NCBI GenBank assembly: GCA_036390995.1
Contig: DASWAT010000111.1
Span: 378 to 64,377 of the forward strand
Reading direction: 5' to 3'
Origin: Actinomycetota bacterium
Lineage (GTDB): Bacteria; Actinomycetota; UBA4738; HRBIN12
Length of the DNA stretch: 64,000 nt
A program made the translations under genes and the position numbers. Positions 13,837 to 22,999 of the stretch are shown here, piece after piece; position 1 is the first letter of the stretch, and the number at the start of each line of letters is the position of its first letter. Under the pieces are notes generated by a model. The model did not search any database. It was not told where the DNA came from and saw only the letters and a program-made list of their open reading frames with translations.

Positions 13837-13903
13837 ATCCAGCGAAAAAGGCTACCAGACCGGTCCTTCGTTCAGCCTCCCAGGAGCGACAGAGCACGCG
13901 CTC

Positions 13904-15014
13904 CTACCCGCTCCGGAGCACAGGGTGTCCGTCGGACACGATGTACGCGGGCAGGAGCCTTGCCTCGAACCGGCCCTCCGGGGTCACCGTCACCTGCGCC
14001 ACGCCGGTGGTCGACCCCTCCTGCGACAGGTGCGGCCACACGAAGTTGCCGAGGCTGTAGAAGATCGGGCGGCCCTTGTAGGTCTGCAGCGGCTGCAGTC
14101 GGTGAGCGTGCCCACCGAAGATCACGTCCGCGCCGGCGTTGATCATCCGGTGGGCCTCCTCGACCTGGTACTCCCGCGGCTGCGTGTCGAGCTCGACGCC
14201 CCAGTGGATCATGACGACGACCAGGTCCGAGCGCGCGGCGGCGTTCCCGGATGGCCTCCAGCGCGAGCGAGAAGTCGTGACCCGCCGCCGTCCCCGGCTT
14301 GTCCGGCCCTGCAACTTCGTACTCCGGGTCGATCACCTCGTCGAGGCCCACCACCGCCACGCGCCAGCCCTTCACGTCGAAGATCGCCGGCCGCAGCGCC
14401 TGATCCTGGTTCGCCCCGGCCCCCACGGGGACCAGTCCCGCCTCGCGGATCTGCCGTAGCGAGTCCAGCAGGCCCTCCGGCCCTTGGTCGTAGGCGTGGT
14501 TGTTCGACTGGTTCGCCACGTCGACCCCGAACCGCTTCGCGACCGGCAGCGCCGCGGGATCGCACCGGAACACGAACTGCTTCGCGACCGGTGCGCTCAT
14601 GCCGGTGGCCGGGCACTCGAGGTTGACCACGGTGAGGTCGTCCCGGAGGAACAGGCCGCCCAGGCCCGACCACGCCCAGCCGTAGCCGTTGGAGCCGAAG
14701 ACGGGGATGTAGCCGGGATCCAAGCTCACGTCGCCGGTGCCGTGGATCACGAGGGTGCCCCTGGGCTCCGGGCTCGGACTCGGGCTCGGACCGGGGATCG
14801 GGTTCGAGGCGGAGCTCCGGGCGGCGGCGGTGCCCGGGCTCGAGGCCTGAGAGGCCTGCCCGGAGCTGGGCGTCAGGACCGCCGCGACCGTATCGGCCCG
14901 GCCGGCGCCGAGATCGGTCGCGCGCCAGGCCACCGCGCCGGCGACCACCAGGACCAGCGCGGCGAGGACCGGTCCGAAGGGCAGGCGCCACCGGCGGCGG
15001 TGACGGTGCGTCAC
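13904..15014 (-). pseudogene. CapA-family (PGA_cap metallophosphatase) membrane-anchored protein, interrupted by a single frameshift near 14235
   Basis: The N-terminal part (TM anchor MTHRHRRRWRLPFGPVLAALVLVV..., then NQSNNHAYDQG, SLALEAIRERRR) is in one frame. The C-terminal part (RSDLVVVMIHWGVE..., GGHAHRLQ, IFYSLGNFVW) is in the -1/+1 frame. The junction lies in the run cgccgccgcgcgc. It may be a true pseudogene or a sequencing indel. Confidence 0.55.
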
Positions 15015-15018
15015 CCGC

Positions 15019-15978
15019 CTATCCTCCCACGGGGGGCACGATCCCCCTCGTGCGACGCACGTCGTCCTCCATGGCCCGGATCAGGTCCTCGGTGGATCCG
15101 AACCGCTCCTCATCGCGCAGTCGCTCCCAGAACTCCACGGTGAGGTCCTGGCCCCGGAGGTCCCCGTCGCCGAAATCCAGGAGGTAGGCCTCCACGTGCA
15201 GCGGCTCCACGCCGAAGGTCGGGTTCGTGCCGACGCTCACGGCGGCCACGTACTCGCCCCGGGCGCTCCCGGCCCGTCCCGCGTAGATCCCGGTGCCGGG
15301 AAGCAACAGTCGGGGCGACGTGCGGAGGTTCGCCGTTGGGAAGCCGAGTCCGTGGCCGCGGCCCGCACCGCTCACCACGGTCCCGTCCACCGAGTACCGC
15401 CGGCCCAGGGCGCGCGTCGGCCACTCCAGATCCCCCGCCGAGAGCGCCTCCCGGATCGACGAGGAGGACAGCCGTCGTCCGTCGAGCTCGAAGGGCGCCA
15501 CCTCCTCCGCGGTGAAGCCGAGGGACGCTCCGAGCTCGTGGAGGGTCTGGAGGGTTCCCGCCGCCCGGTGTCCGAACGTGAAGTCGCCCCCCACCGCCAC
15601 GTGGACGGCGTGGAGCCCGTTCACCAGCACCGTGCGGACGAATGCCTCTGCCGTCCACCGCGAGAACGCCTCGGTGAATCCGAGGATCAGCAGCACGTCG
15701 GCCCCCGTGGCCGCGATCAGCTCCGCCTTGCGATCCACCGTGGTGAGGAGCCGGGGCTCCTTGCCCGGGGTGAGGATCTCCCGCGGATGGCGGTCGAAGG
15801 TGACGGCCACGGCCCGTGCCGAGCGCTCCCGCGCGGCCTGCACCGTCTGCTCGATCACGGCGCGATGGCCCAGGTGCACGCCGTCGAAGAAGCCGACGGT
15901 GACGACGGTGGGCCCGTCGTCGATGGGCAGCGAGGCGACGCCTCGGCGGATCTCCATGCCGCGCAGGGTATCGAACAA
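15019..15978 (-). CDS. ribF: bifunctional riboflavin kinase / FMN adenylyltransferase
   Basis: The N-terminal FAD synthetase region (GFFDGVHLGHRAVI) and the C-terminal riboflavin kinase region (GFPTANL..., VEAYLLDFGDGDLRGQDLTVEF) are both present. Confidence 0.9.
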   Translation of the reverse strand: MFDTLRGMEIRRGVASLPIDDGPTVVTVGFFDGVHLGHRAVIEQTVQAARERSARAVAVTFDRHPREILTPGKEPRLLTTVDRKAELIAATGADVLLILGFTEAFSRWTAEAFVRTVLVNGLHAVHVAVGGDFTFGHRAAGTLQTLHELGASLGFTAEEVAPFELDGRRLSSSSIREALSAGDLEWPTRALGRRYSVDGTVVSGAGRGHGLGFPTANLRTSPRLLLPGTGIYAGRAGSARGEYVAAVSVGTNPTFGVEPLHVEAYLLDFGDGDLRGQDLTVEFWERLRDEERFGSTEDLIRAMEDDVRRTRGIVPPVGG

Positions 15979-16020: not shown

Positions 16021-16965
16021 ATGGGGAGCGGAGGGGGTCGGGGCCGCCGAGCGGCCGCCCTCATCGCCGTGGCCGCAGCACTTCTCGCGTCTGCGTGCTC
16101 CGGACCCGGGGGGCCGAACCCCTCGGCCCTCGAGGACGACGCCGTCACGGTCGCCTCGTTCAACTTCCCCGAGAGCGTCTTGCTGGCCGAGCTGTACGCG
16201 CAGGCGCTCGAGGCTCACGGGTTCCGGGTCGACCGCAAGCTCGACCTGGGCACCCGGGAGATCGTGGAGCCGGCGCTCGAGCGGGGGCTGGTCGAGCTCG
16301 TTCCCGAGTACGGCGGCAGCCTGCTGGAGTTCCTCGCCGGCCAGAACTCGGCGGGGCCCGACGCCGAGGACGTCCACCATCGCCTGGCCTCGGCGCTGCA
16401 AGGTCGGGGGATCGTGGCGCTCGACGCCGCACCGGCCCAGGACCAGAACGGCGTGGTCGTCACTCGCACGACGGCGGACCGGTACGGCGTTCGAACCATC
16501 TCGGACCTGGCCCCCATCGCCGACGGCCTCACGTTCGGCGGGCCGCCGGAGTGCCGGGTACGGCCGCTCTGTCTGCCTGGGCTCGCGTCGGCCTACGGTC
16601 TCACGTTCGCGAGCTTCGTCCCGCTGGACGAGGGCGGCCCCCTGACCATCGCGGCGCTCCAGGAAGAACACGTCCAGGTCGCTGTGATGTTCACGAGCGA
16701 CGGAGCCATCGAGGCCAACGACCTCGTCGTGCTCACGGACGACCGCCACCTGCAGCCCGCCGAGAACGTCACCCCCGTCGTCCGCCAGGAGACCCTGCAA
16801 CGCTTGGACCCGCAGCTCGCCGAGATCGTCAACTCGGTGTCGGCCCTCCTGACCACGCATGGTCTCCGGCAGCTGAACGCGGAGGTCTCGTCCGGGGACC
16901 GCACCGTGGGGGAGATCGCCGCGGACTGGCTGCGCTCGCACGGCCTGACGGGGCCGGTGGGGTAG
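16021..16965 (+). CDS. ABC-transporter substrate-binding lipoprotein, glycine betaine/choline (OpuAC/OsmF) type, orphan
   Basis: Lipoprotein signal LIAVAAALLASAC, followed by an OpuAC-type core (ASFNFPESVLLAELYAQALEAHGFRVDRKLDLGTREIVEPALERGLVELVPEYGGSL). No permease or ATPase genes occur within the window. Confidence 0.7.
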   Translation: MGSGGGRGRRAAALIAVAAALLASACSGPGGPNPSALEDDAVTVASFNFPESVLLAELYAQALEAHGFRVDRKLDLGTREIVEPALERGLVELVPEYGGSLLEFLAGQNSAGPDAEDVHHRLASALQGRGIVALDAAPAQDQNGVVVTRTTADRYGVRTISDLAPIADGLTFGGPPECRVRPLCLPGLASAYGLTFASFVPLDEGGPLTIAALQEEHVQVAVMFTSDGAIEANDLVVLTDDRHLQPAENVTPVVRQETLQRLDPQLAEIVNSVSALLTTHGLRQLNAEVSSGDRTVGEIAADWLRSHGLTGPVG

Positions 16966-16995
16966 CATCCGGAGGATCCGCAGTCGGGGGGACGG

Positions 16996-18696
16996 ATGAT
17001 CGGACCAGGGGACCTCTCCGCTCGACGCATCGCGGAGGAGCGCCGGCGACGGCTCCCCGGTGGTTCGGCCACCCGGCGGCGACGCCCCTCGGGCCAGCCA
17101 CCTCCCCTCCCGCACGTGCTCGGACCGAGCGGACGCTTCTGGATCGTGATGCTGGGCTTGTTCGTCGTCATCCTGGTCGGCCTCGGACTGTCCGAGTCGC
17201 TCGGCGGCATGCTCGAGCGCTGGGAGGCGCGGCAGCTTGCCGGGTTGGCCGAGCTGCGCACGGGTTGGCTGACGCAGGCCATGCTCGCTGTGAACCTCCT
17301 CGCCTCGCGGTGGACGATCCGGACCGTCAGATGGGGCACCATCCTCGCGCTGATCGCCGTCCGGCGGTGGCGACACCTCTTGCTCTTCCTGGGGAGCCTC
17401 TTCGCCGCCGAGCTCATCGCCTACCAGCTCTCGATCGGGATCACGCGTCCGCGGCCGCTCGGGGTCGTCATCCTGGCGCCCTGGAACGGATACTCGATGC
17501 CCTCGAGACCCGTCGCCGGCTTGGCGGCGACCGGGATCGGGATCGCGTACGCGCTCGTGGTGCCCGGCCGGCCCCGCGCCGTCGCGAAATGGACGACGGG
17601 CGTCGTGGTCGGCATGCTCGTGTTCGCCCGTCTGTATCTGGGCGTCGACCATCCCACCGACGACCTCTTCGGGATGATCATCGGGGTCTCGATCCCCCTC
17701 GTCGCGTTCCGGTGGTTCGCCCCGAACGACGTGTTCCCCGTCAGCTACCGCCGCGGCAAGGCGGCACACCTGGATGTCGGAGGGCGTCGAGGGCAGGCGA
17801 TCCGGGAAGCGGTGCGCGACCAGATCGGTCTCGAGGTGCTCGAGATCAAGCCTGTCGGCCTGGAGGGTTCCGGCGGGTCGACGCCGCTTCGCCTCAAGGT
17901 TGCGGCCACCGACGACGAGCCCGAGCGGTACCTGTTCGCCAAGCTCTACGCGAAGAACCACGTGCGCGCCGACCGTTGGTACAAGCTGGGGCGCTCCATC
18001 CTCTACGGTGCGCTCGAGGACGAGACGCCGTTCGGGACGGTCCGGCGGTTCGTCGAGTACGAGGACTACACCCTCCGGTTGCTGCGCGACGCCGGCATCC
18101 CGACCCCCGCGCCGTTCGGCATCGTCGAGATCACCCCCGAGCGCGAGTACATGATCCTCATGGAGTTCTTCGCCGGCGCCGTCGAGATCGGCGAGTCGGA
18201 GGTCGACGACGGTGTCATCTCCGACGGGTTGGCGGTGATCCGGGCGTTCTGGGACGCGGGACTCGCACACCGCGACATCAAGCCTGCCAACCTCATGGTC
18301 CGCGACGGCAAGGTCCTCGTGATCGACGTCTTCTTCGTGCAGGTGCGTCCCTCGCCGTGGCGCCAGGCGGTCGACCTGGCGAACATGATGCTGGTCCTGG
18401 CCGTGAAGACCGACGCCGAGCGCGTGTACCGGCGCGCCCTCGAGTACTTCACGCCGGAGGAGATCGCCGAAGCGTTCGCCGCCGCCCGCGGTGTGGCCAG
18501 CCCCACACAGCTCCGGTCGGTGTTGAAGAGCGACGGCCGCGATCTCGTGAACGAGTTCCGCGCGATGGCGCCGCCTCGCGCGCCGATCTCGATCCAGCGG
18601 TGGAGCCTCCGCCGGGTGGTCCTGACCTTCGAGGTGCTGATCGGCGCGTTGATCGTCCTCAGCCTGCTGGTGAGCAACTGGGCGGTGTTCGCATGA
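16996..18696 (+). CDS. membrane fusion protein: PAP2-like N-terminal domain plus protein-kinase-like (Kdo/WaaP/eSTK-like) C-terminal domain and a C-terminal TM helix
   Basis: The N-terminal half has about 6 TM helices with PAP2 motif 1 (SIGITRPRP) and motif 3 (ARLYLGVDHPTDD), but motif 2 reads PSRP instead of PSGH. The C-terminal half has a kinase-like beta3 region (YLFAKLYAKNH), a catalytic loop HRDIKPANLMV, and VIDVFFV in the DFG position. A final TM helix is present. Confidence 0.6.
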   Translation: MIGPGDLSARRIAEERRRRLPGGSATRRRRPSGQPPPLPHVLGPSGRFWIVMLGLFVVILVGLGLSESLGGMLERWEARQLAGLAELRTGWLTQAMLAVNLLASRWTIRTVRWGTILALIAVRRWRHLLLFLGSLFAAELIAYQLSIGITRPRPLGVVILAPWNGYSMPSRPVAGLAATGIGIAYALVVPGRPRAVAKWTTGVVVGMLVFARLYLGVDHPTDDLFGMIIGVSIPLVAFRWFAPNDVFPVSYRRGKAAHLDVGGRRGQAIREAVRDQIGLEVLEIKPVGLEGSGGSTPLRLKVAATDDEPERYLFAKLYAKNHVRADRWYKLGRSILYGALEDETPFGTVRRFVEYEDYTLRLLRDAGIPTPAPFGIVEITPEREYMILMEFFAGAVEIGESEVDDGVISDGLAVIRAFWDAGLAHRDIKPANLMVRDGKVLVIDVFFVQVRPSPWRQAVDLANMMLVLAVKTDAERVYRRALEYFTPEEIAEAFAAARGVASPTQLRSVLKSDGRDLVNEFRAMAPPRAPISIQRWSLRRVVLTFEVLIGALIVLSLLVSNWAVFA

Positions 18697-19277
18697 GGGG
18701 CGGCGGAGGCATGATCGGCCGCACACTGGTCGTCGGCGCGGTGGGGCTGACGATCGCCCTTCCCGCCTGCTCCACCGCGGGAAGCAGCGTCCCCTCGTGC
18801 GAGAGGGAGGGTAACGAGACGGTCCTGGCGGCCCAGGCGGTCCCATCGGCCACGCTCATCCCATGCGTGGATTCCCTCCCCGCAGGCTGGACGTTCGCCG
18901 GATCGCGCTCCACGAACGGCTTGGCCGAGTTCTGGCTCGACTCCGACCGGGCGGGGATCCGCGCGCTCTCCGTCACGTTGACGAGCACCTGCGACACCTC
19001 AAGGGCCGTCGAGATCACCGCGGCGGCCCCACGTCCGGGTGTCCGCATCTTCGAGGAGCCGCTCAGCCTGCCTCCGCACTTCCAGGCCGACCGTTTCGCC
19101 ACGTTCCCCGGCGGCTGCGTCACCTACCGGTTCAGGTTCACCACGGACGCGCCGGCGACCGTGGCCCTCGAGGTCGACCAGGGACTCGGCTTCGTCACCC
19201 GGGAGCGGGTGGCCGGCGCGGTGCGGCGGCTGGGACTGACGCTGTGCGGAGCCGGCGCCCCGCCCTGCCCCGGGTAG
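18693..19277 (+). CDS. secreted/lipoprotein, hypothetical (Cys-rich)
   Basis: The ATG overlaps the stop of the preceding gene (ATGA). It begins MRGGGGMIGRTLVVGAVGLTIALPAC, a signal with a lipobox-like Cys. About 194 aa with 8 Cys and no recognised domain. Confidence 0.5.
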   Translation: MRGGGGMIGRTLVVGAVGLTIALPACSTAGSSVPSCEREGNETVLAAQAVPSATLIPCVDSLPAGWTFAGSRSTNGLAEFWLDSDRAGIRALSVTLTSTCDTSRAVEITAAAPRPGVRIFEEPLSLPPHFQADRFATFPGGCVTYRFRFTTDAPATVALEVDQGLGFVTRERVAGAVRRLGLTLCGAGAPPCPG

Positions 19278-19289
19278 GCTGAGGGACCC

Positions 19290-20003
19290 GTGCTGAAGAA
19301 CCATCGCCGGACGCTCCTCTACGCGGCCGGGCTCCTGGCCGCCATGGCGGTGCTCTTCGCCGCGGTGGGACGGCATCCGCCCGCCGAGACGCCGGCTACG
19401 AGCCTGCCGTTCATCGGTCGATGGGACCTCGACGTGTACCGCGCGATGGACGACATCCGGAACGTCGTGCTGTCCGGCCTCGCCCGAGCCCTGAACGTGA
19501 TCGGCGGCGGGGTCGTGACGATCCCGCTCCGTGCCCTCGTGGCCGTCTGGCTGGCCGCCCGACGCCGCTGGCGGGCCTTCGCCACCTGGGCGCTCACGTG
19601 GATCACCGCCGAGGTCGTCCTGACCGTGGCCAAGGCGTACTTCCATCGGGGGCGACCACCGGCCCCGCTGGTCGCGATCACGGGCTTCTCGTTCCCCTCC
19701 GGCCACGCCGTGGCGGCGGCGGCAACGGCCGTCGCCCTGGTCCTGGTGCTCATGCCGTCCAGCCCCAGGCGGCGCAAGTGGGAGCTGGCGGCCGTGGCGT
19801 TCGCGTTCGTGATGGCCTTCTCGCGCGTGTACCTGAATGCCCATTGGCTGTCGGACGTCGTTTCGGGAGTCCTGCTCGGCACGGGCGTGGCCCTCGGCTC
19901 GGCGGCGCTGGTCAGCGAGGTCCGCCATCACGCGCTCCGGAGGTGGCCGACCCCGGCCTCGATCCCGAGCTCGCCTACTCCGTCGCGGGCCGGAGACTCG
20001 TGA
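19290..20003 (+). CDS. PAP2 family lipid phosphate phosphatase
   Basis: All three PAP2 motifs are intact: KAYFHRGRPP, PSGHA and SRVYLNAHWLSDV. It has a polytopic membrane topology and starts 12 nt after the upstream gene. Confidence 0.8.
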   Translation: MLKNHRRTLLYAAGLLAAMAVLFAAVGRHPPAETPATSLPFIGRWDLDVYRAMDDIRNVVLSGLARALNVIGGGVVTIPLRALVAVWLAARRRWRAFATWALTWITAEVVLTVAKAYFHRGRPPAPLVAITGFSFPSGHAVAAAATAVALVLVLMPSSPRRRKWELAAVAFAFVMAFSRVYLNAHWLSDVVSGVLLGTGVALGSAALVSEVRHHALRRWPTPASIPSSPTPSRAGDS

Positions 20004-21126
20004 CGAACTCCGGCTCCTCCGGTGCCGGCCGGCGCCAGCTCTTCTTCGCGCGCCAGATCAGATAGGTGATCCCACCCAGCGGGATCTGGATGCCGTACGT
20101 GAGCCCCCGGAAGACCAAGACGGCCGCCGCGATCTGCGCGCGGAACACCTCCGGGGGGACGTCGGCATGAGACCGCCCCGCGAGGATGAGCCCACCGATG
20201 TAGCTGAGCTCGACCACACCCAGGCCGCCGGGGGTGAGCGGCAGCGCCGTGACCAAGCGCCCGAAGGCGAACACGCCCAGCACCTGGGCCCAGCCGATCT
20301 CGTGCTCGGACACCCCGACGTGCCGTAGCGCCAGCAGCAGGACGAAGTACAAGGCGAGGTGGCTCAGGACGGTGGTGAGCGTGAGGGCCACCCATCGCCC
20401 GGCCACGAGGTCGATGGTCTGACGCCGGAAGCGCACGACCACCTCGCCGAAGTCGGAGAGCGGCGGCTTGCGGGCCAGCCGGCGCAGGAACGAGAGGGCC
20501 CCGCCCAGCAGGTCGCCGATCCGGCGGGCGAAGGCCTTCTTCCACAGCACGAGGACGAACAGCGCCACGGCGACGGCCAGGACGACCACGCCGACCGAGG
20601 CACCCACGACCAGCCCCCCGCTCGCCTGACCTTCGATCGCGAGGAGCGCGAGCGCGATCACCGGCAGTCCGAGCTTCATGAAGACGTTCCAGATCCCCGT
20701 GACCGCCACGGACAGCGCGATCGCCGAGCCGGGGAACCCCCACGAGCGGTACATCGCGTAGCCGAGGCCGACGGCCAGGTATCCACCCCCCGGGATCGTG
20801 TTGGCGACCGACGTGGTGGTCTGGTTGTTCACGGCGGCCTGCCAGAGCCCCAGACCGGGGATCGAAGCCATGTTCAGCCACCAGTAGGTGACGAGGTTGA
20901 AGATCGTCGCCGCGACCAGCGAGGCGATCTCCAGCCTCGTCATCTGGGTGATCGAGTCCCAGACCTTCGAGTAGTCCGCCAGTTTGGGGATCGCGTAGGC
21001 GAAGATCCCGACGACGAGCGCGACCGAGACCACGATCTGGACGATCCGCTTGATCGGCCACCGACGGGGCAACCTCGCCGGGGCCTCGCGCGGAGTCGCG
21101 CCGGGGGTCCCCTCGTGGCTGGGCAT
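19975..21126 (-). CDS. lysylphosphatidylglycerol-synthase-TM-region-like (flippase-like, UPF0104) membrane protein
   Basis: About 383 aa and polytopic. The N-terminal RRWPIKRIVQIVVSVALVVGIFAYAI and the conserved LPLTPGGLGVVE loop are typical of the LPG_synthase_TM / UPF0104 family. It is convergent with the PAP2 gene and overlaps it by 29 nt. Confidence 0.6.
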   Translation of the reverse strand: MPSHEGTPGATPREAPARLPRRWPIKRIVQIVVSVALVVGIFAYAIPKLADYSKVWDSITQMTRLEIASLVAATIFNLVTYWWLNMASIPGLGLWQAAVNNQTTTSVANTIPGGGYLAVGLGYAMYRSWGFPGSAIALSVAVTGIWNVFMKLGLPVIALALLAIEGQASGGLVVGASVGVVVLAVAVALFVLVLWKKAFARRIGDLLGGALSFLRRLARKPPLSDFGEVVVRFRRQTIDLVAGRWVALTLTTVLSHLALYFVLLLALRHVGVSEHEIGWAQVLGVFAFGRLVTALPLTPGGLGVVELSYIGGLILAGRSHADVPPEVFRAQIAAAVLVFRGLTYGIQIPLGGITYLIWRAKKSWRRPAPEEPEFVTSLRPATE

Positions 21127-21164: not shown

Positions 21165-22022
21165 TCAGTCCGTCGCGAGGACCACCTCGGGGCGGGCCTT
21201 GGCCCCATCGTCGCGGTAGACGGCGATCAGCCGCCCCTCGGGTCCGAACACCGCGTACGATCCGGCGATCCCGGCGGGCCCCAGGATCGTGCCGTGGCTC
21301 GCCGCGCGTGCTTCCTCGGCGCCCAGGTCCAGCCGCGGGAGGTGGGACACGGCCACCTCGATCGGAGCTGGGGCGCTCGCACGCTCGGGCGGAACGGCTT
21401 CGTCCAGCCGGAAGGGCCCGATCGCGGTACGCACGAGCCTGGTGAGGTGCGCCCCGCACCCCAGGGCCTCGCCGACGTCGGACAGCAGCGCGCGCACGTA
21501 GGTCCCGCTCGAGCAGATCACCCTGAAGTCGACGTCGGGCGAGCGGAACGCGAGCAGCTCGAACGCGTCGACCCGGATGGGCCTCCGAGCGGCCTCCACG
21601 GTCCGTCCCGTCCGTGCGGCCTCGTACAGCTTGCGCCCCCCCACCTTCACCGCCGAGTACGCGGGCGGCCGCTGCATCGACTCCCCCACGAGCGCGGCCA
21701 TCGACTCCGACACGTCACGCCGCGAGACGCGGACCTCCGACGTCCGCACGATCCGGCCCTCGGCGTCGAGCGTGTCCGTCTCTTCGCCGAGCCGAGCCGT
21801 GCCCTCGTACGTCTTCGGCAGGTCGCCGAGGAACCGTAGCAGGCGCGTGGCGCGCCCCACGCCGACCATGAGGAGCCCGGTGGCCATGGGATCGAGGGTC
21901 CCGGCATGGCCCACCTTGCGCGTGCGAAGCCTGCGGCGCACGACGTCCACGACGTCGTGCGAGGTGACGCCCTTCGGCTTGTCGACGAGCAGCAATCCCT
22001 CGGGGCGCCCGCCGTCGCTCAC
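21165..22022 (-). CDS. truB: tRNA pseudouridine(55) synthase
   Basis: LLVDKPKGVTSHDVV, HAGTLDPMATGLL and a PUA-like C-terminus are present. The GTG start overlaps the nrnA stop (GTGA). Confidence 0.85.
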   Translation of the reverse strand: MSDGGRPEGLLLVDKPKGVTSHDVVDVVRRRLRTRKVGHAGTLDPMATGLLMVGVGRATRLLRFLGDLPKTYEGTARLGEETDTLDAEGRIVRTSEVRVSRRDVSESMAALVGESMQRPPAYSAVKVGGRKLYEAARTGRTVEAARRPIRVDAFELLAFRSPDVDFRVICSSGTYVRALLSDVGEALGCGAHLTRLVRTAIGPFRLDEAVPPERASAPAPIEVAVSHLPRLDLGAEEARAASHGTILGPAGIAGSYAVFGPEGRLIAVYRDDGAKARPEVVLATD

Positions 22023-22999
22023 GGCCGGGAGGAGCCGTCGCCCAGTGCGTCCTGCAACTCGCGGAGGGTGAGCGCGAGCCCATGGCGGGACGTGTAGCCG
22101 GCCGCCAGCCGATGCCCGCCGCCCCCGAACCGTGAGGCGACGCCAGCGACGTCGTGTCCGCCCCGGGATCGCAAGCTGACCTTGAACCGGCCATCGCGCT
22201 GCTGCTTCACCACGGCGGCGACGTCCGCCTCGCGGGCGGTTCGGATGACGTCGATCAGGTCGTCGGTCTCGGCCGGCTCCACGCCGGCTTCGGCCAGGTC
22301 GGCCCGGGTGAGGTAGGTCCACACGAGATCCGCCTCCGGCTCCAGCCGTAGGCGGCGCAAGACCGTCCCCAGGAGCCTCAGGTACGCGGCCCCGTTGTCC
22401 TCGTAGAGCGCCTGCGCCAGCGCTGCATGGTCGAACGGATGCTCCCGCAGCTCGGCGGCGATCCGAAGCGTCTCCGGCCGGGTGGCCGTGTACTGGAACC
22501 GTCCCGTGTCCGTGATCAGCCCGGCGTACAGGCACACAGCCACCTGATCGGGCATCTCGCCGCCGATCTCGCGGACCAGGCGGAACACCAGCTCGCAGGT
22601 GGACGAAGCGGTCCGATCGACCAGCGGGATCGTCCCAAGGCCGTCGTTGCTGGCGTGGTGGTCGATCCAGATCAGCTCCGTCGCCGTTCCGGCCGCCGCG
22701 CCCAGGACGCCCAGCCGATCCATCGACGCCGTGTCGCACGTGACCATCACCTCCGGCGCCTCCGGGAAGTCGCCGGGAGGCACGAGGGCCTCCCGGCCGG
22801 GCAACCGCTCCAACCACCTCGGCGCCTCGAACGGGTCGTTGCCGAACGAGCACACCGTGCGAACCCCCTGCGCCCGGAGGTGGCTCGACAGCCCCAGCAT
22901 GGATCCGAGGGCGTCGGGATCGGGGTTCACGTGACACGCGAGGGCGACCTCGCGCGCCTCCCGGAGCACCCGCGCGGCGTGTGCGAGCTCGTCACTCAT
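22019..22999 (-). CDS. nrnA: DHH-family bifunctional oligoribonuclease / pAp phosphatase (NrnA/CnpB-like)
   Basis: DHH motif region (HVNPDPDALGS, WIDHH) plus a DHHA1 C-terminus. It is adjacent to rbfA, as in mycobacteria. Confidence 0.8.
   Translation of the reverse strand: MSDELAHAARVLREAREVALACHVNPDPDALGSMLGLSSHLRAQGVRTVCSFGNDPFEAPRWLERLPGREALVPPGDFPEAPEVMVTCDTASMDRLGVLGAAAGTATELIWIDHHASNDGLGTIPLVDRTASSTCELVFRLVREIGGEMPDQVAVCLYAGLITDTGRFQYTATRPETLRIAAELREHPFDHAALAQALYEDNGAAYLRLLGTVLRRLRLEPEADLVWTYLTRADLAEAGVEPAETDDLIDVIRTAREADVAAVVKQQRDGRFKVSLRSRGGHDVAGVASRFGGGGHRLAAGYTSRHGLALTLRELQDALGDGSSRP

What the first reader, a model, noticed from the sequence alone, without database searches (positions are those of the whole stretch)
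16021..21126. Envelope-lipid module: orphan OpuAC-type binding protein, PAP2/kinase-like fusion, Cys-rich lipoprotein, intact PAP2, and a convergent LPG-synthase-TM-like flippase
Four co-directional genes are packed with 31-, -4- and 12-nt spacing, giving an operon-like layout. The centrepiece is a 566-aa membrane protein that fuses a PAP2 phosphatase fold to a protein-kinase-like domain (catalytic loop HRDIKPANLMV, Kdo/WaaP-like YLFAKLYAKN strand) and ends in a TM helix. The PAP2 motif 2 is degenerate (PSRP instead of PSGH). An intact stand-alone PAP2 enzyme with KxxxxxxRP / PSGH / SRxxxxxHxxxD follows two genes later. The substrate-binding protein upstream has no cognate permease or ATPase, so it may act as a periplasmic ligand sensor for the fusion protein rather than in transport. 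A lysyl-PG-synthase-TM-type (UPF0104) protein converges on the module. Together this looks like an uncharacterised lipid head-group phosphorylation/dephosphorylation or remodelling system of the cell envelope. I do not recognise this domain fusion from characterised systems.
Basis: partly seen in the sequence, partly recalled or inferred. Interest (0 to 1): 0.75.

Follow-up and report, generated by a model that had tools for sequence, protein, structure and literature searches.

The report
Dead-phosphatase membrane kinase sensor module
A widely conserved but unstudied gene cluster of uncultured soil Actinomycetota encodes a membrane protein that joins a catalytically dead lipid phosphatase to an intact protein-kinase domain. 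It most likely acts as a cell-envelope signalling receptor, not as a lipid-modifying enzyme.

Summary
All five genes, the spacings and the quoted motifs are present as described. The 566-aa fusion is real: more than 8000 homologous clusters and at least 526 species genomes, all metagenome-assembled Actinomycetota.

The pseudo-active site faces outward and the kinase faces the cytoplasm. In a sister clade the Cys-rich lipoprotein is fused in frame after the C-terminal TM helix. Other relatives carry REC-LuxR or STAND-TPR domains. An S/T-only RRP[S/T]G motif precedes TM1.

The binding protein, the intact PAP2 and the UPF0104 protein stay linked even in rearranged operons.

Best reading (about 0.5): a new receptor-type Ser/Thr kinase module that senses the envelope, possibly lipid phosphates. 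I found no published description. No function was tested.

The parts
16021..16965 (+). Orphan OpuAC-type substrate-binding protein with a signal peptide and the lipobox-like motif LLASAC.
   Evidence: Pfam OpuAC scores 165.6 bits. The closest solved structures are OpuBC-derived sensors, 5uve, OsmF and ProX. Of the four canonical aromatic-cage positions, placed by pairwise alignment to 5uve/7s7w (approximate), only Y97 and F224 are aromatic. The other two are N143 (61 of 61 orthologues) and E248 (57 E, 4 D). A C178/C184 pair is invariant. The gene sits directly upstream of the fusion in 59 of 69 loci. No permease or ATPase gene is in the module or its immediate flanks.
16996..18696 (+). 566-aa fusion protein: cytoplasmic N-terminal tail, PAP2-fold TM domain, kinase domain, C-terminal TM helix.
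   Evidence: More than 8000 homologous clusters. AF2 model pLDDT 77.5. Fold matches. The public gene call (P0001, 515 aa) starts at M52 and cuts off the conserved N-terminal motif and TM1. Conservation of residues 29-46 shows that the ATG at 16996 is the real start.
17080..17112 (+). Conserved cytoplasmic juxtamembrane motif RRRP-S32-G-x-PPPLP, a candidate phospho-acceptor or docking site.
   Evidence: R, R, P and G are 60-62 of 62 conserved in 50%-identity representatives. Position 32 is S 38, T 18, other 5. In 206 closer homologues it is S 114, T 92, other 0. The motif is kept just before TM1 even behind large N-terminal domains. It is disordered in the model. Its function is inferred.
17125..17721 (+). 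PAP2-fold transmembrane domain (residues about 44-242), catalytically dead, with the pseudo-active site facing outward.
17779..18570 (+). Cytoplasmic protein-kinase-like domain (residues about 262-525) with intact catalytic residues.
18607..18675 (+). C-terminal TM helix (residues 538-560) that carries the chain to the outside.
   Evidence: Hydropathy 2.0 and a helix in the model. In the sister clade this helix is followed in frame by the lipoprotein-type domain.
18693..19277 (+). Extracytoplasmic Cys-rich protein, a probable lipoprotein (LPAC motif). It belongs to an undescribed family with a Mog1/PsbP-like fold.
19290..20003 (+). Stand-alone PAP2 lipid-phosphate phosphatase with all three catalytic motifs intact.
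   Evidence: Pfam PAP2 62.1 bits. K-x6-RP, PSGH and SR-x5-H-x3-D are read in the sequence. The closest solved relative is B. subtilis PgpB/YodM at E 1e-11. Weak NCBIfam hits to SepP and PgpB. Adjacent in 57 of 70 loci.
19975..21126 (-). UPF0104 / MprF-flippase-like membrane protein without a synthase domain.
   Evidence: Pfam LPG_synthase_TM 58.5 bits. NCBIfam bifunctional MprF scores only 39 bits against a cut-off of 600. Present in 43 of 51 loci, convergent in 38. In L072 and L074 it lies on the same strand directly upstream of the binding protein and the fusion.

Best explanation
The module encodes a receptor-type transmembrane signalling kinase and its extracytoplasmic partners.

**The fusion protein.** It threads a PAP2-derived six-helix domain through the membrane. 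That domain has lost both catalytic histidines but mostly keeps the phosphate-binding Arg and Ser residues, so its pocket at the outer membrane face can probably bind a phosphorylated lipid without hydrolysing it. This is inferred. Candidate ligands are a polyprenyl (pyro)phosphate or a phosphatidylglycerol phosphate; none was tested. The domain is followed on the cytoplasmic side by an intact kinase with the Ser/Thr-type HRDxKxxN loop on a minimal RIO/Bud32-like scaffold. A last TM helix then returns the chain to the outside.

**The outside partners.** The Cys-rich Mog1/PsbP-like domain sits there, either fused to the last TM helix (sister clade) or as a separate lipoprotein (this window). 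It is probably joined by the orphan OpuAC-type binding protein, whose pocket is non-canonical. Together they would act as ligand-sensing inputs (inferred).

**The output.** Signals would change kinase activity and lead to phosphorylation of cytoplasmic targets. These may include the invariant RRP[S/T]G juxtamembrane site and, in some relatives, fused REC-LuxR or STAND-TPR domains (inferred).

**The linked genes.** The active PAP2 phosphatase and the MprF-flippase-like protein are genetically linked. They are likely the envelope-lipid functions that the sensor monitors or works with (inferred).

**Shown:** the folds, motif loss and retention, charge-based topology, the in-frame fusion of the lipoprotein domain, and gene linkage.

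**Not shown:** kinase activity, ligands, substrates.
For: - **Family size.** More than 8000 clusters, 717 clusters at 50% identity with E<=1e-30, and at least 526 species genomes.
- **Dead PAP2, live kinase.** The motif-2 His position is H in 3 of 86 and the motif-3 His position in 0 of 107. The motif-1 R is kept in 74/81. In the kinase, K316 is kept in 120/125, HR in 116/119 and D427 in 113/119, K429 in 112/117, N432 in 111/115, D444 in 110/113.
- **Topology.** The Arg-rich N-terminus, RRWR and PGRPR loops and the kinase are inside. PAP2 motifs 1-3 and the C-terminus are outside.
- **In-frame fusion.** The lipoprotein domain follows the last TM helix in L071, L072 and L074-L078 and in more than 100 clusters of 715-750 aa. 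The six structural Cys are kept and the lipobox Cys is dropped.
- **Signalling-domain accretion.** REC+LuxR in P0134 and P0139; STAND NTPase+TPR in P0124 and P0128, with a TPR-only N-terminus in P0173.
- **Paralogues.** Copies next to HisKA_3 histidine kinases.
- **N-terminal motif.** S 114, T 92, other 0, in all architectures.
- **Linkage.** Lipoprotein 73/75, SBP 59/69, PAP2 57/70, UPF0104 43/51. The genes are reshuffled into same-strand operons in L072 and L074 outside the ribF-truB context.
- **SBP pocket.** Residues are invariant but non-canonical.
- **Precedents.** A binding protein signalling through a membrane protein to a Ser/Thr kinase: GlnH-GlnX-PknG (PMC6069109, PMC9769921). A lipid-handling TM domain fused to a kinase-like domain, a TM helix and an extracellular domain: MviN (PMC12599244).
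Against: - No experiment exists for any member, and all members come from uncultured organisms.
- The Pkinase HMM score is far below threshold (16.3 against 31.7). I see no APE motif or long activation loop after DVF in the sequence.
- No partner phosphatase (PP2C) or FHA gene was identified among the genes examined beside the module. The flanks were matched only to this window's own proteins plus a handful of Pfam scans, so absence was not specifically tested.
- Lipid binding by the dead PAP2 pocket rests only on retained Arg and Ser residues. The motif-3 Arg is kept in just 71 of 105.
- The 80 loci examined are the closest relatives, so part of the synteny reflects shared descent.
Confidence: 0.5

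Rival explanations
1. The kinase-like domain is an ATPase or conformational switch, as in RIO, Bud32 or UbiB-type atypical kinases. It gates or powers the handling of a phosphorylated carrier lipid held by the dead PAP2 domain. It would work with the UPF0104 flippase-like protein and the active PAP2 in recycling polyprenyl phosphate or another lipid phosphate.
For: - The closest folds and the most consistent HMM hit are RIO/Bud32 (RIO1 in 46 of 47 homologues). These proteins act chiefly as ATPases (established knowledge).
- P0128 has a weak ABC1/UbiB hit.
- The fusion is tightly linked to an intact PAP2 and an MprF-flippase-like protein, including in rearranged operons.
- The PAP2 pocket mostly keeps its phosphate-binding residues.
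Against: - The catalytic loop is HRDxKxxN with a conserved Lys (112/117). RIO and Bud32 have HxDLSxxN and HGDLTTSN (own knowledge; the Bud32 loop is visible in the alignment).
- The S/T-only N-terminal motif and the fused REC-LuxR and STAND-TPR domains fit signalling better.
- PAP2 and UPF0104 are missing from a minority of loci, whereas the lipoprotein domain is almost never missing.
Confidence: 0.2
2. One reading: a lipid head-group remodelling system. The kinase domain phosphorylates a lipid or glycolipid (Kdo/WaaP- or APH-like) and the PAP2 proteins dephosphorylate it.
For: - Weak Kdo and APH HMM hits.
- An intact PAP2 and a flippase-like protein are neighbours.
Against: - The fusion's own PAP2 domain is catalytically dead across the family.
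- Its pocket faces outward while the kinase is cytoplasmic, so the two cannot share a head group on one membrane face.
- Lys at D+2 of the catalytic loop is typical of protein Ser/Thr kinases and absent from the APH, choline-kinase and Kdo-kinase loops (own knowledge).
- Kdo is the least frequent kinase-family hit apart from a single WaaY match (25 of 47).
- The accreted domains are regulatory, not metabolic.
Confidence: 0.15
3. The five genes are neighbours only by shared descent: an insertion between ribF and truB in one lineage, with no common function.
For: In 32 of 42 assessable loci the module sits in the same ribF-truB context. The 80 loci are close relatives, with 58-72% identity for the fusion. 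UPF0104 is co-directional with truB and could belong to that operon.
Against: - The lipoprotein domain is fused in frame to the kinase protein in another clade.
- Outside the ribF-truB context the genes reappear in new orders on one strand: UPF0104-SBP-fusion in L072, and UPF0104-SBP-fusion-PAP2 in L074.
- Spacings in the window are 30, -4 and 12 nt.
Confidence: 0.05

Closest known systems
GlnH-GlnX-PknG signalling system of Mycobacterium and Corynebacterium (PMC6069109, PMC9769921)
   Same: Actinobacterial. A lipoprotein-type solute-binding protein with no transporter is encoded next to a membrane protein and a Ser/Thr kinase, and acts as the extracellular sensor for the kinase.
   Different: There the membrane transducer (GlnX) and the kinase (PknG, soluble, canonical Hanks type with a TPR domain) are separate proteins. 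The binding protein is of the amino-acid type, not OpuAC. There is no PAP2 fold and no Mog1/PsbP-like domain. No sequence relationship was tested or is claimed.
MviN/MurJ (Rv3910) of M. tuberculosis, with its pseudokinase and extracellular domain (PMC12599244)
   Same: A polytopic lipid-handling TM domain is fused to a cytoplasmic kinase-like domain, then a TM helix, then an extracellular domain. It serves cell-envelope regulation.
   Different: In MviN the TM domain is an active flippase and the kinase is dead (VALT, no HRD, no DFG). Here it is reversed: the TM enzyme domain is dead and the kinase motifs are intact.
Receptor-type Hanks Ser/Thr kinases (PknB, PrkC)
   Same: Cytoplasmic kinase with an HRDxKPxN loop, a single TM helix, an extracellular sensor domain, and regulatory phosphorylation of juxtamembrane regions (PMC12636448). 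PknB senses a lipid-linked wall precursor (PMC6428115).
   Different: Here the kinase is preceded by a six-helix PAP2-fold domain. It lacks a recognisable activation loop or APE motif, scores below the Pkinase threshold, and is structurally nearer to RIO/Bud32. The extracellular domain is Mog1/PsbP-like, not PASTA.
RIO and Bud32/PRPK atypical kinases
   Same: Closest fold and most consistent HMM hit for the kinase domain, with a compact C-lobe.
   Different: Those are soluble ribosome- or tRNA-associated ATPases with HxDLSxxN or HGDLTTSN loops. Here the domain is membrane-embedded at both ends, has an HRDIKPAN loop, and scores below the RIO1 gathering score (19.1 against 22).
PAP2 lipid-phosphate phosphatases (B. 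subtilis PgpB/YodM, E. coli PgpB, LpxE)
   Different: The fusion's domain lacks the motif-1 Lys and both catalytic His residues across the family, so it cannot use the PAP2 phospho-histidine mechanism.
Kdo kinase / WaaP family
   Same: Protein-kinase-like fold and weak HMM similarity (14.3 bits in the window protein; 25 of 47 homologues at E<=0.01).

Membership tests
PAP2 phosphatase (PF01569): N-terminal domain of the fusion | PAP2 six-helix fold | tested here: met
PAP2 phosphatase (PF01569): N-terminal domain of the fusion | Pfam gathering score | tested here: not met
   24.4 bits against a cut-off of 27.2 for the window protein. 42 of 47 homologues match at E<=0.01.
PAP2 phosphatase (PF01569): N-terminal domain of the fusion | Catalytic motifs K-x6-RP, PSGH and SR-x5-H-x3-D, with both histidines | tested here: not met
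   The motif-1 K position is variable (Q here). The motif-2 His position is P in 51 and H in 3 of 86. The motif-3 His position is D or E in 82 and H in 0 of 107.
Hanks-type Ser/Thr protein kinase (PF00069) | Beta3 Lys, HRDxKxxN catalytic loop, metal-binding Asp | tested here: met
   K316 120/125; HR 116/119; D427 113/119; K429 112/117; N432 111/115; D444 110/113.
Hanks-type Ser/Thr protein kinase (PF00069) | Pfam gathering score, and an activation segment ending in APE | tested here: not met
RIO / Bud32 atypical kinases (PF01163, TIGR03724) | Closest fold among kinases | tested here: met
RIO / Bud32 atypical kinases (PF01163, TIGR03724) | Family score cut-offs and the family-type catalytic loop (HxDLSxxN / HGDLTTSN) | tested here: not met
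   RIO1 19.1 against 22. Bud32 23.1 against 125. The loop is HRDIKPAN (Bud32 alignment).
Kdo/WaaP kinase (PF06293) | Pfam gathering score and structural proximity | tested here: not met
OpuAC-type betaine/choline binding protein (PF04069) | Domain match | tested here: met
   165.6 bits. PDB relatives at E 1e-22 to 1e-26.
OpuAC-type betaine/choline binding protein (PF04069) | Four-residue aromatic cage for quaternary ammonium ligands | tested here: not met
   Positions were mapped through the alignments. Y97 and F224 are kept. The other two are N143 (61/61) and E248 (57 E, 4 D). The mapping is by pairwise alignment and therefore approximate.
OpuAC-type betaine/choline binding protein (PF04069) | Adjacent ABC permease and ATPase genes | tested here: not met
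   The neighbours are ribF and the fusion gene in the window and in most related loci.
PAP2 phosphatase: stand-alone gene 19290-20003 | Pfam score and three intact catalytic motifs | tested here: met
   62.1 bits. The motifs are read in the sequence. B. subtilis PgpB at E 1e-11. The substrate was not tested.
MprF (bifunctional lysyl-PG flippase/synthase) | Flippase-type TM domain | tested here: met
   LPG_synthase_TM 58.5 bits against 33.4.
MprF (bifunctional lysyl-PG flippase/synthase) | C-terminal aminoacyl-PG synthase domain | tested here: not met
   The protein is 383 aa and all TM. NCBIfam bifunctional MprF scores 39 bits against 600.
Mog1/PsbP-like fold proteins (including mycobacterial LpqN and Mtc28) | Structural similarity of the Cys-rich lipoprotein | tested here: inconclusive
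SBP-dependent Ser/Thr kinase signalling (GlnH-GlnX-PknG type) | Physical and functional coupling of the binding protein to the kinase | not testable with these tools
   Only conserved adjacency (59 of 69 loci) and the lack of a transporter.

The most novel reading that the evidence does not exclude
This would be a previously unrecognised class of bacterial receptor kinase. A catalytically dead PAP2 lipid phosphatase would act as the intramembrane sensor of a phosphorylated envelope lipid, for example the polyprenyl (pyro)phosphate carrier. It would act together with a Mog1/PsbP-like extracellular domain and an orphan binding protein. The signal would pass to an intact minimal Ser/Thr kinase that autophosphorylates an RRP[S/T]G site and adjusts carrier-lipid recycling by the linked PAP2 and flippase-like proteins.
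Probability: 0.3. Interest if true: 0.8.

Novelty: new variant of a known kind. Interest (0 to 1): 0.62.

Why it matters
How bacteria monitor the supply of phosphorylated envelope lipids and carrier lipids is poorly understood. Few ligands of bacterial Ser/Thr kinases are known.

This family is large: at least 526 species genomes and more than 8000 protein clusters. It is confined, as far as seen, to uncultured soil Actinomycetota, and it is currently annotated only as 'PAP2 family' or 'RIO1/Bud32'.

Its anatomy gives a directly testable proposal: an enzyme fold (PAP2) reused as a membrane sensor for a kinase. It is the mirror image of mycobacterial MviN, where the transporter is active and the kinase is dead. 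It also defines a new extracytoplasmic Cys-rich domain family, and a second possible case of solute-binding-protein-dependent Ser/Thr kinase signalling.

Tried and rejected
- **Frameshift artefact joining two genes: rejected.** Thousands of full-length homologues exist.
- **Kdo/WaaP-like kinase: rejected as the closest family**.
- **Active PAP2 in the fusion: rejected** by motif statistics.
- **Twin-arginine signal as an explanation for RRRPSG: rejected by reading.** No RRxFLK pattern is present, and the motif also sits internally behind large cytoplasmic domains.
- **Promoter and terminator scan:** no promoter-like site. One weak hairpin at 20021-20036, and the two terminator-like sites found are within the number expected by chance. 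Uninformative at 70% GC.
- **afdb50 fold search** (to look for named or cultured organisms): the library was unavailable.
- **Literature searches:** four searches plus three targeted reads found no description of a PAP2-kinase fusion.
- **Cultured hosts:** a search with the three-part form returned only metagenomic sequences among the best 120.
- **Recurrent extra neighbours in rearranged loci:** only histidine kinases next to paralogues turned up.


Full report
**1. What is in the sequence**

The region lies in a roughly 70% GC stretch. It sits between ribF (15019-15978, -) and truB (21165-22100, -), inside the conserved pnp-rpsO...ribF / truB-nrnA-rbfA-DUF503-infB cluster. Most flanking genes were verified by Pfam; pnp, rbfA and infB were read from the translations only.

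Four plus-strand genes follow one another:
- an OpuAC-type binding protein (SBP), 16021-16965
- a 566-aa membrane protein, 16996-18696
- a 194-aa Cys-rich probable lipoprotein, 18693-19277
- a 237-aa PAP2, 19290-20003

A 383-aa UPF0104 protein (19975-21126, -) converges on them and overlaps PAP2 by 29 bp. The spacings are 30 nt, a 4-nt overlap and 12 nt.

Pfam supports OpuAC (165.6 bits), the stand-alone PAP2 (62.1 bits) and LPG_synthase_TM (58.5 bits). For the fusion, every HMM hit is below its curated cut-off (PAP2 24.4, APH 22.1, RIO1 19.1, Pkinase 16.3, Kdo 14.3). Its domain assignment therefore needed independent support.

**2. The fusion is real and both folds are confirmed**

A search of 5.8 billion proteins returned more than 8000 homologous clusters. 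The best 120 are 65-77% identical, mostly about 560 aa, and all from metagenomes or MAGs of Actinomycetota. A profile search of 50%-identity representatives found 717 clusters at E<=1e-30. At least 526 species-representative genomes encode it, all MAGs.

An AF2 model built on 47 sequences (pLDDT 77.5) matches two folds:
- in the C-terminal half, RIOK3 (15.6), Bud32 (14.7), Rio1 (14.6) and APH(9) (14.7)

WaaP (12.4, rank 36) and PknB (12.1) are more distant. By sequence, the only solved relative is an Arabidopsis Bud32 at E 0.0024. Among 47 homologues, RIO1 is hit by 46, PAP2 by 42, APH by 42, Pkinase by 38 and Kdo by 25.

**3. A dead phosphatase joined to a live kinase**

Motif statistics come from 150 representatives at 50% identity.

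PAP2 domain:
- The motif-2 histidine position is Pro in 51 and His in only 3 of 86.
- The motif-3 histidine position is Asp or Glu in 82 and never His, of 107.
- The motif-1 Lys position is variable.
- Phosphate-binding positions are largely kept: motif-1 Arg 74/81 and Pro 78/80, motif-2 Ser 71/86, motif-3 Arg 71/105.

Kinase domain:
- K316 120/125
- H425-R426 116/119 and D427 113/119
- K429 112/117
- N432 111/115
- D444 110/113

The loop HRDIKPAN carries the Lys at D+2 that marks protein Ser/Thr kinases. RIO, Bud32, APH and Kdo-kinase loops lack it (my own knowledge; the Bud32 loop HGDLTTSN is visible). The domain has no recognisable APE motif or activation segment. It is a Hanks-type active site on a minimal RIO/Bud32-like scaffold.

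**4. Topology**

Hydropathy and charge distribution give this layout:
- Inside: the Arg-rich N-terminus (10 K+R), the RRWR loop (122-126), the PGRPR loop and the whole kinase.
- Outside: PAP2 motifs 1-2 (149-170), motif 3 (216-221) and the C-terminus after the last TM helix (538-560).

This is the canonical PAP2 orientation. The pseudo-active site and the kinase therefore sit on opposite faces of the membrane. That geometry suits transmembrane signalling. It does not suit two enzymes acting on one lipid head group.

**5. The lipoprotein is a physical partner**

The 194-aa protein has no Pfam or NCBIfam match. It has 719 homologous clusters, all named 'hypothetical'. It has an LPAC lipobox-like motif; the Pro at -2 is atypical. 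Six further Cys are invariant.

In loci L071, L072 and L074-L078 the same domain is fused in frame directly after the C-terminal TM helix of the kinase protein. It keeps the six Cys and loses the lipobox Cys. More than 100 clusters of 715-750 aa have this three-part form. This is strong genomic evidence that the split lipoprotein in the window works with the fusion at the outer membrane face.

**6. Gene linkage**

Counts come from 80 related loci:

| Gene | Count |
|---|---|
| Lipoprotein domain adjacent | 73 of 75 |
| SBP directly upstream | 59 of 69 |
| Intact PAP2 downstream | 57 of 70 |
| UPF0104 within the locus | 43 of 51 (38 convergent) |
| ribF-truB context | 32 of 42 |

These are the closest relatives, so some of this synteny is inherited. 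Outside the ribF-truB context the genes reappear in new arrangements on one strand: UPF0104-SBP-fusion in L072, and UPF0104-SBP-fusion-PAP2 in L074. That argues for selection on linkage.

**7. Signalling flavour of the wider family**

- Representatives carry N-terminal REC + LuxR-type HTH domains (P0134, P0139), STAND NTPase + TPR (P0124, P0128; P0173 shows TPR only), or an additional intact PAP2 (P0156).
- Paralogous copies without the lipoprotein lie divergently next to HisKA_3 histidine kinases (L031, L033).
- Just before TM1 every architecture keeps the motif RRP[S/T]G-x2-3-PLP. In 206 homologues with a complete N-terminus the central residue is Ser in 114, Thr in 92 and never anything else. 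In 50%-identity representatives it is S or T in 56 of 61.

An S/T-only constraint in a disordered, basic juxtamembrane segment is what a phospho-acceptor site would show. This is an inference. A conserved juxtamembrane phosphosite that activates PrkC is a published precedent (PMC12636448).

**8. The binding protein**

It is clearly OpuAC-type, with solved relatives at E about 1e-24. I mapped the four aromatic-cage positions through those alignments onto 61 orthologues. Only Y97 and F224 are aromatic. The other two positions are an invariant Asn (N143) and Glu (E248: 57 E, 4 D). The pocket is thus conserved but non-canonical.

No permease or ATPase gene accompanies it. Orphan binding proteins that feed Ser/Thr kinases are known in Actinobacteria: GlnH-GlnX-PknG (PMC6069109, PMC9769921).

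**9. Interpretation**

The best-supported reading (about 0.5) is a receptor-type Ser/Thr kinase module. A PAP2-derived pseudo-enzyme domain, a Mog1/PsbP-like extracellular domain and an orphan binding protein would provide the extracytoplasmic or intramembrane inputs. The linked active PAP2 (closest to B. subtilis PgpB) and the MprF-flippase-like protein point to phosphorylated envelope lipids as the physiological theme.

Rivals:
- An ATPase switch or lipid-handling machine in the manner of RIO, Bud32 or UbiB (0.2).
- Mere inherited synteny (0.05).

The remaining probability is for something not yet imagined. Structure alone cannot decide the substrate class, because APH-type small-molecule kinases are as close as RIO. 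No activity, ligand or substrate has been tested.

**10. Novelty**

Pfam, NCBIfam and the literature searches gave no description of this architecture. That includes a 2025 atlas of bacterial Ser/Thr kinases and a 2025 review of bacterial pseudokinases. Public names are only 'phosphatase PAP2 family protein', 'RIO1 family regulatory kinase/ATPase' or 'Bud32'.

It is built from known domain kinds and resembles known receptor kinases in logic. I therefore rate it a new variant of a known kind. It has an unusual mirror-image relationship to MviN, where the transporter is active and the kinase is dead (PMC12599244).

Noticed in passing
window 16996-17148: The public gene call for the fusion (P0001, 515 aa) starts at Met52. 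It omits the invariant RRRPSGxPPPLP motif and cuts into TM1. Conservation across homologues shows the ATG at 16996 is the true start. The lipoprotein call (P0271, 188 aa) likewise starts at Met7 (18711), so the 4-nt overlap depends on which start is used.
   Followed up: partly
window 13872-15014 (-) and 13904-14314 (-): The PGA_cap (CapA-like) gene between rpsO and ribF is split between two reading frames. Pfam model positions 5-146 are in the long ORF and positions 185-252 in the overlapping 136-aa ORF. This is a frameshift, either a pseudogene or an assembly error, somewhere between about 14240 and 14320. The gene is present in only some related loci.
   Followed up: partly
L031 7007-9085 (-), L033 3163-5244 (-), L008 3357-5483 (+): Second copies of the fusion that lack the lipoprotein, SBP and PAP2 neighbours lie divergently next to a roughly 690-aa polytopic HisKA_3/HATPase_c histidine kinase. 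L032 and L033 come from the same MAG, so one genome can hold both types.
   Followed up: partly
P0124, P0126, P0128, P0133 (about 1370-1400 aa); P0134, P0139 (about 760 aa); P0156 (924 aa): Family members exist with about 830 aa of STAND NTPase + TPR (Pfam-checked in P0124 and P0128 only), with REC + LuxR HTH, or with an extra intact PAP2 in front of the conserved RRP[S/T]G-TM1 start. The membrane kinase seems to be wired into several regulatory schemes.
   Followed up: partly
L010, L013, L023: about 1.0-1.9 kb upstream of the fusion gene, minus strand: In several related loci an extra gene of about 290 aa is inserted between ribF and the binding-protein gene. By eye it looks like a polyphosphate kinase 2 (YEKELRRLQEELVK...IFEGRDAAGKGG-type N-terminus). 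No HMM check was made. It is absent from the window.
   Followed up: no
L058 and L007: about 1.1-1.8 kb upstream of the fusion gene, minus strand: A 206-242-aa membrane ORF replaces the binding protein upstream of the fusion in these loci. Its N-terminal region looks PAP2-like by eye. This was not tested.
   Followed up: no
window 19975-20036: The 3' ends of PAP2 (+) and UPF0104 (-) overlap by 29 bp. A weak GC-rich hairpin with a poor T-tract at 20021-20036 lies inside the UPF0104 coding end. The two terminator-like sites found are within the number expected by chance.
   Followed up: no
window 16021-16965, residues C178 and C184: The binding protein has an invariant Cys pair (E-C-x-x-R-x-x-C) in all 61 orthologues. 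It is probably a disulphide near the hinge or pocket. I do not recall this from characterised OpuAC proteins.
   Followed up: no
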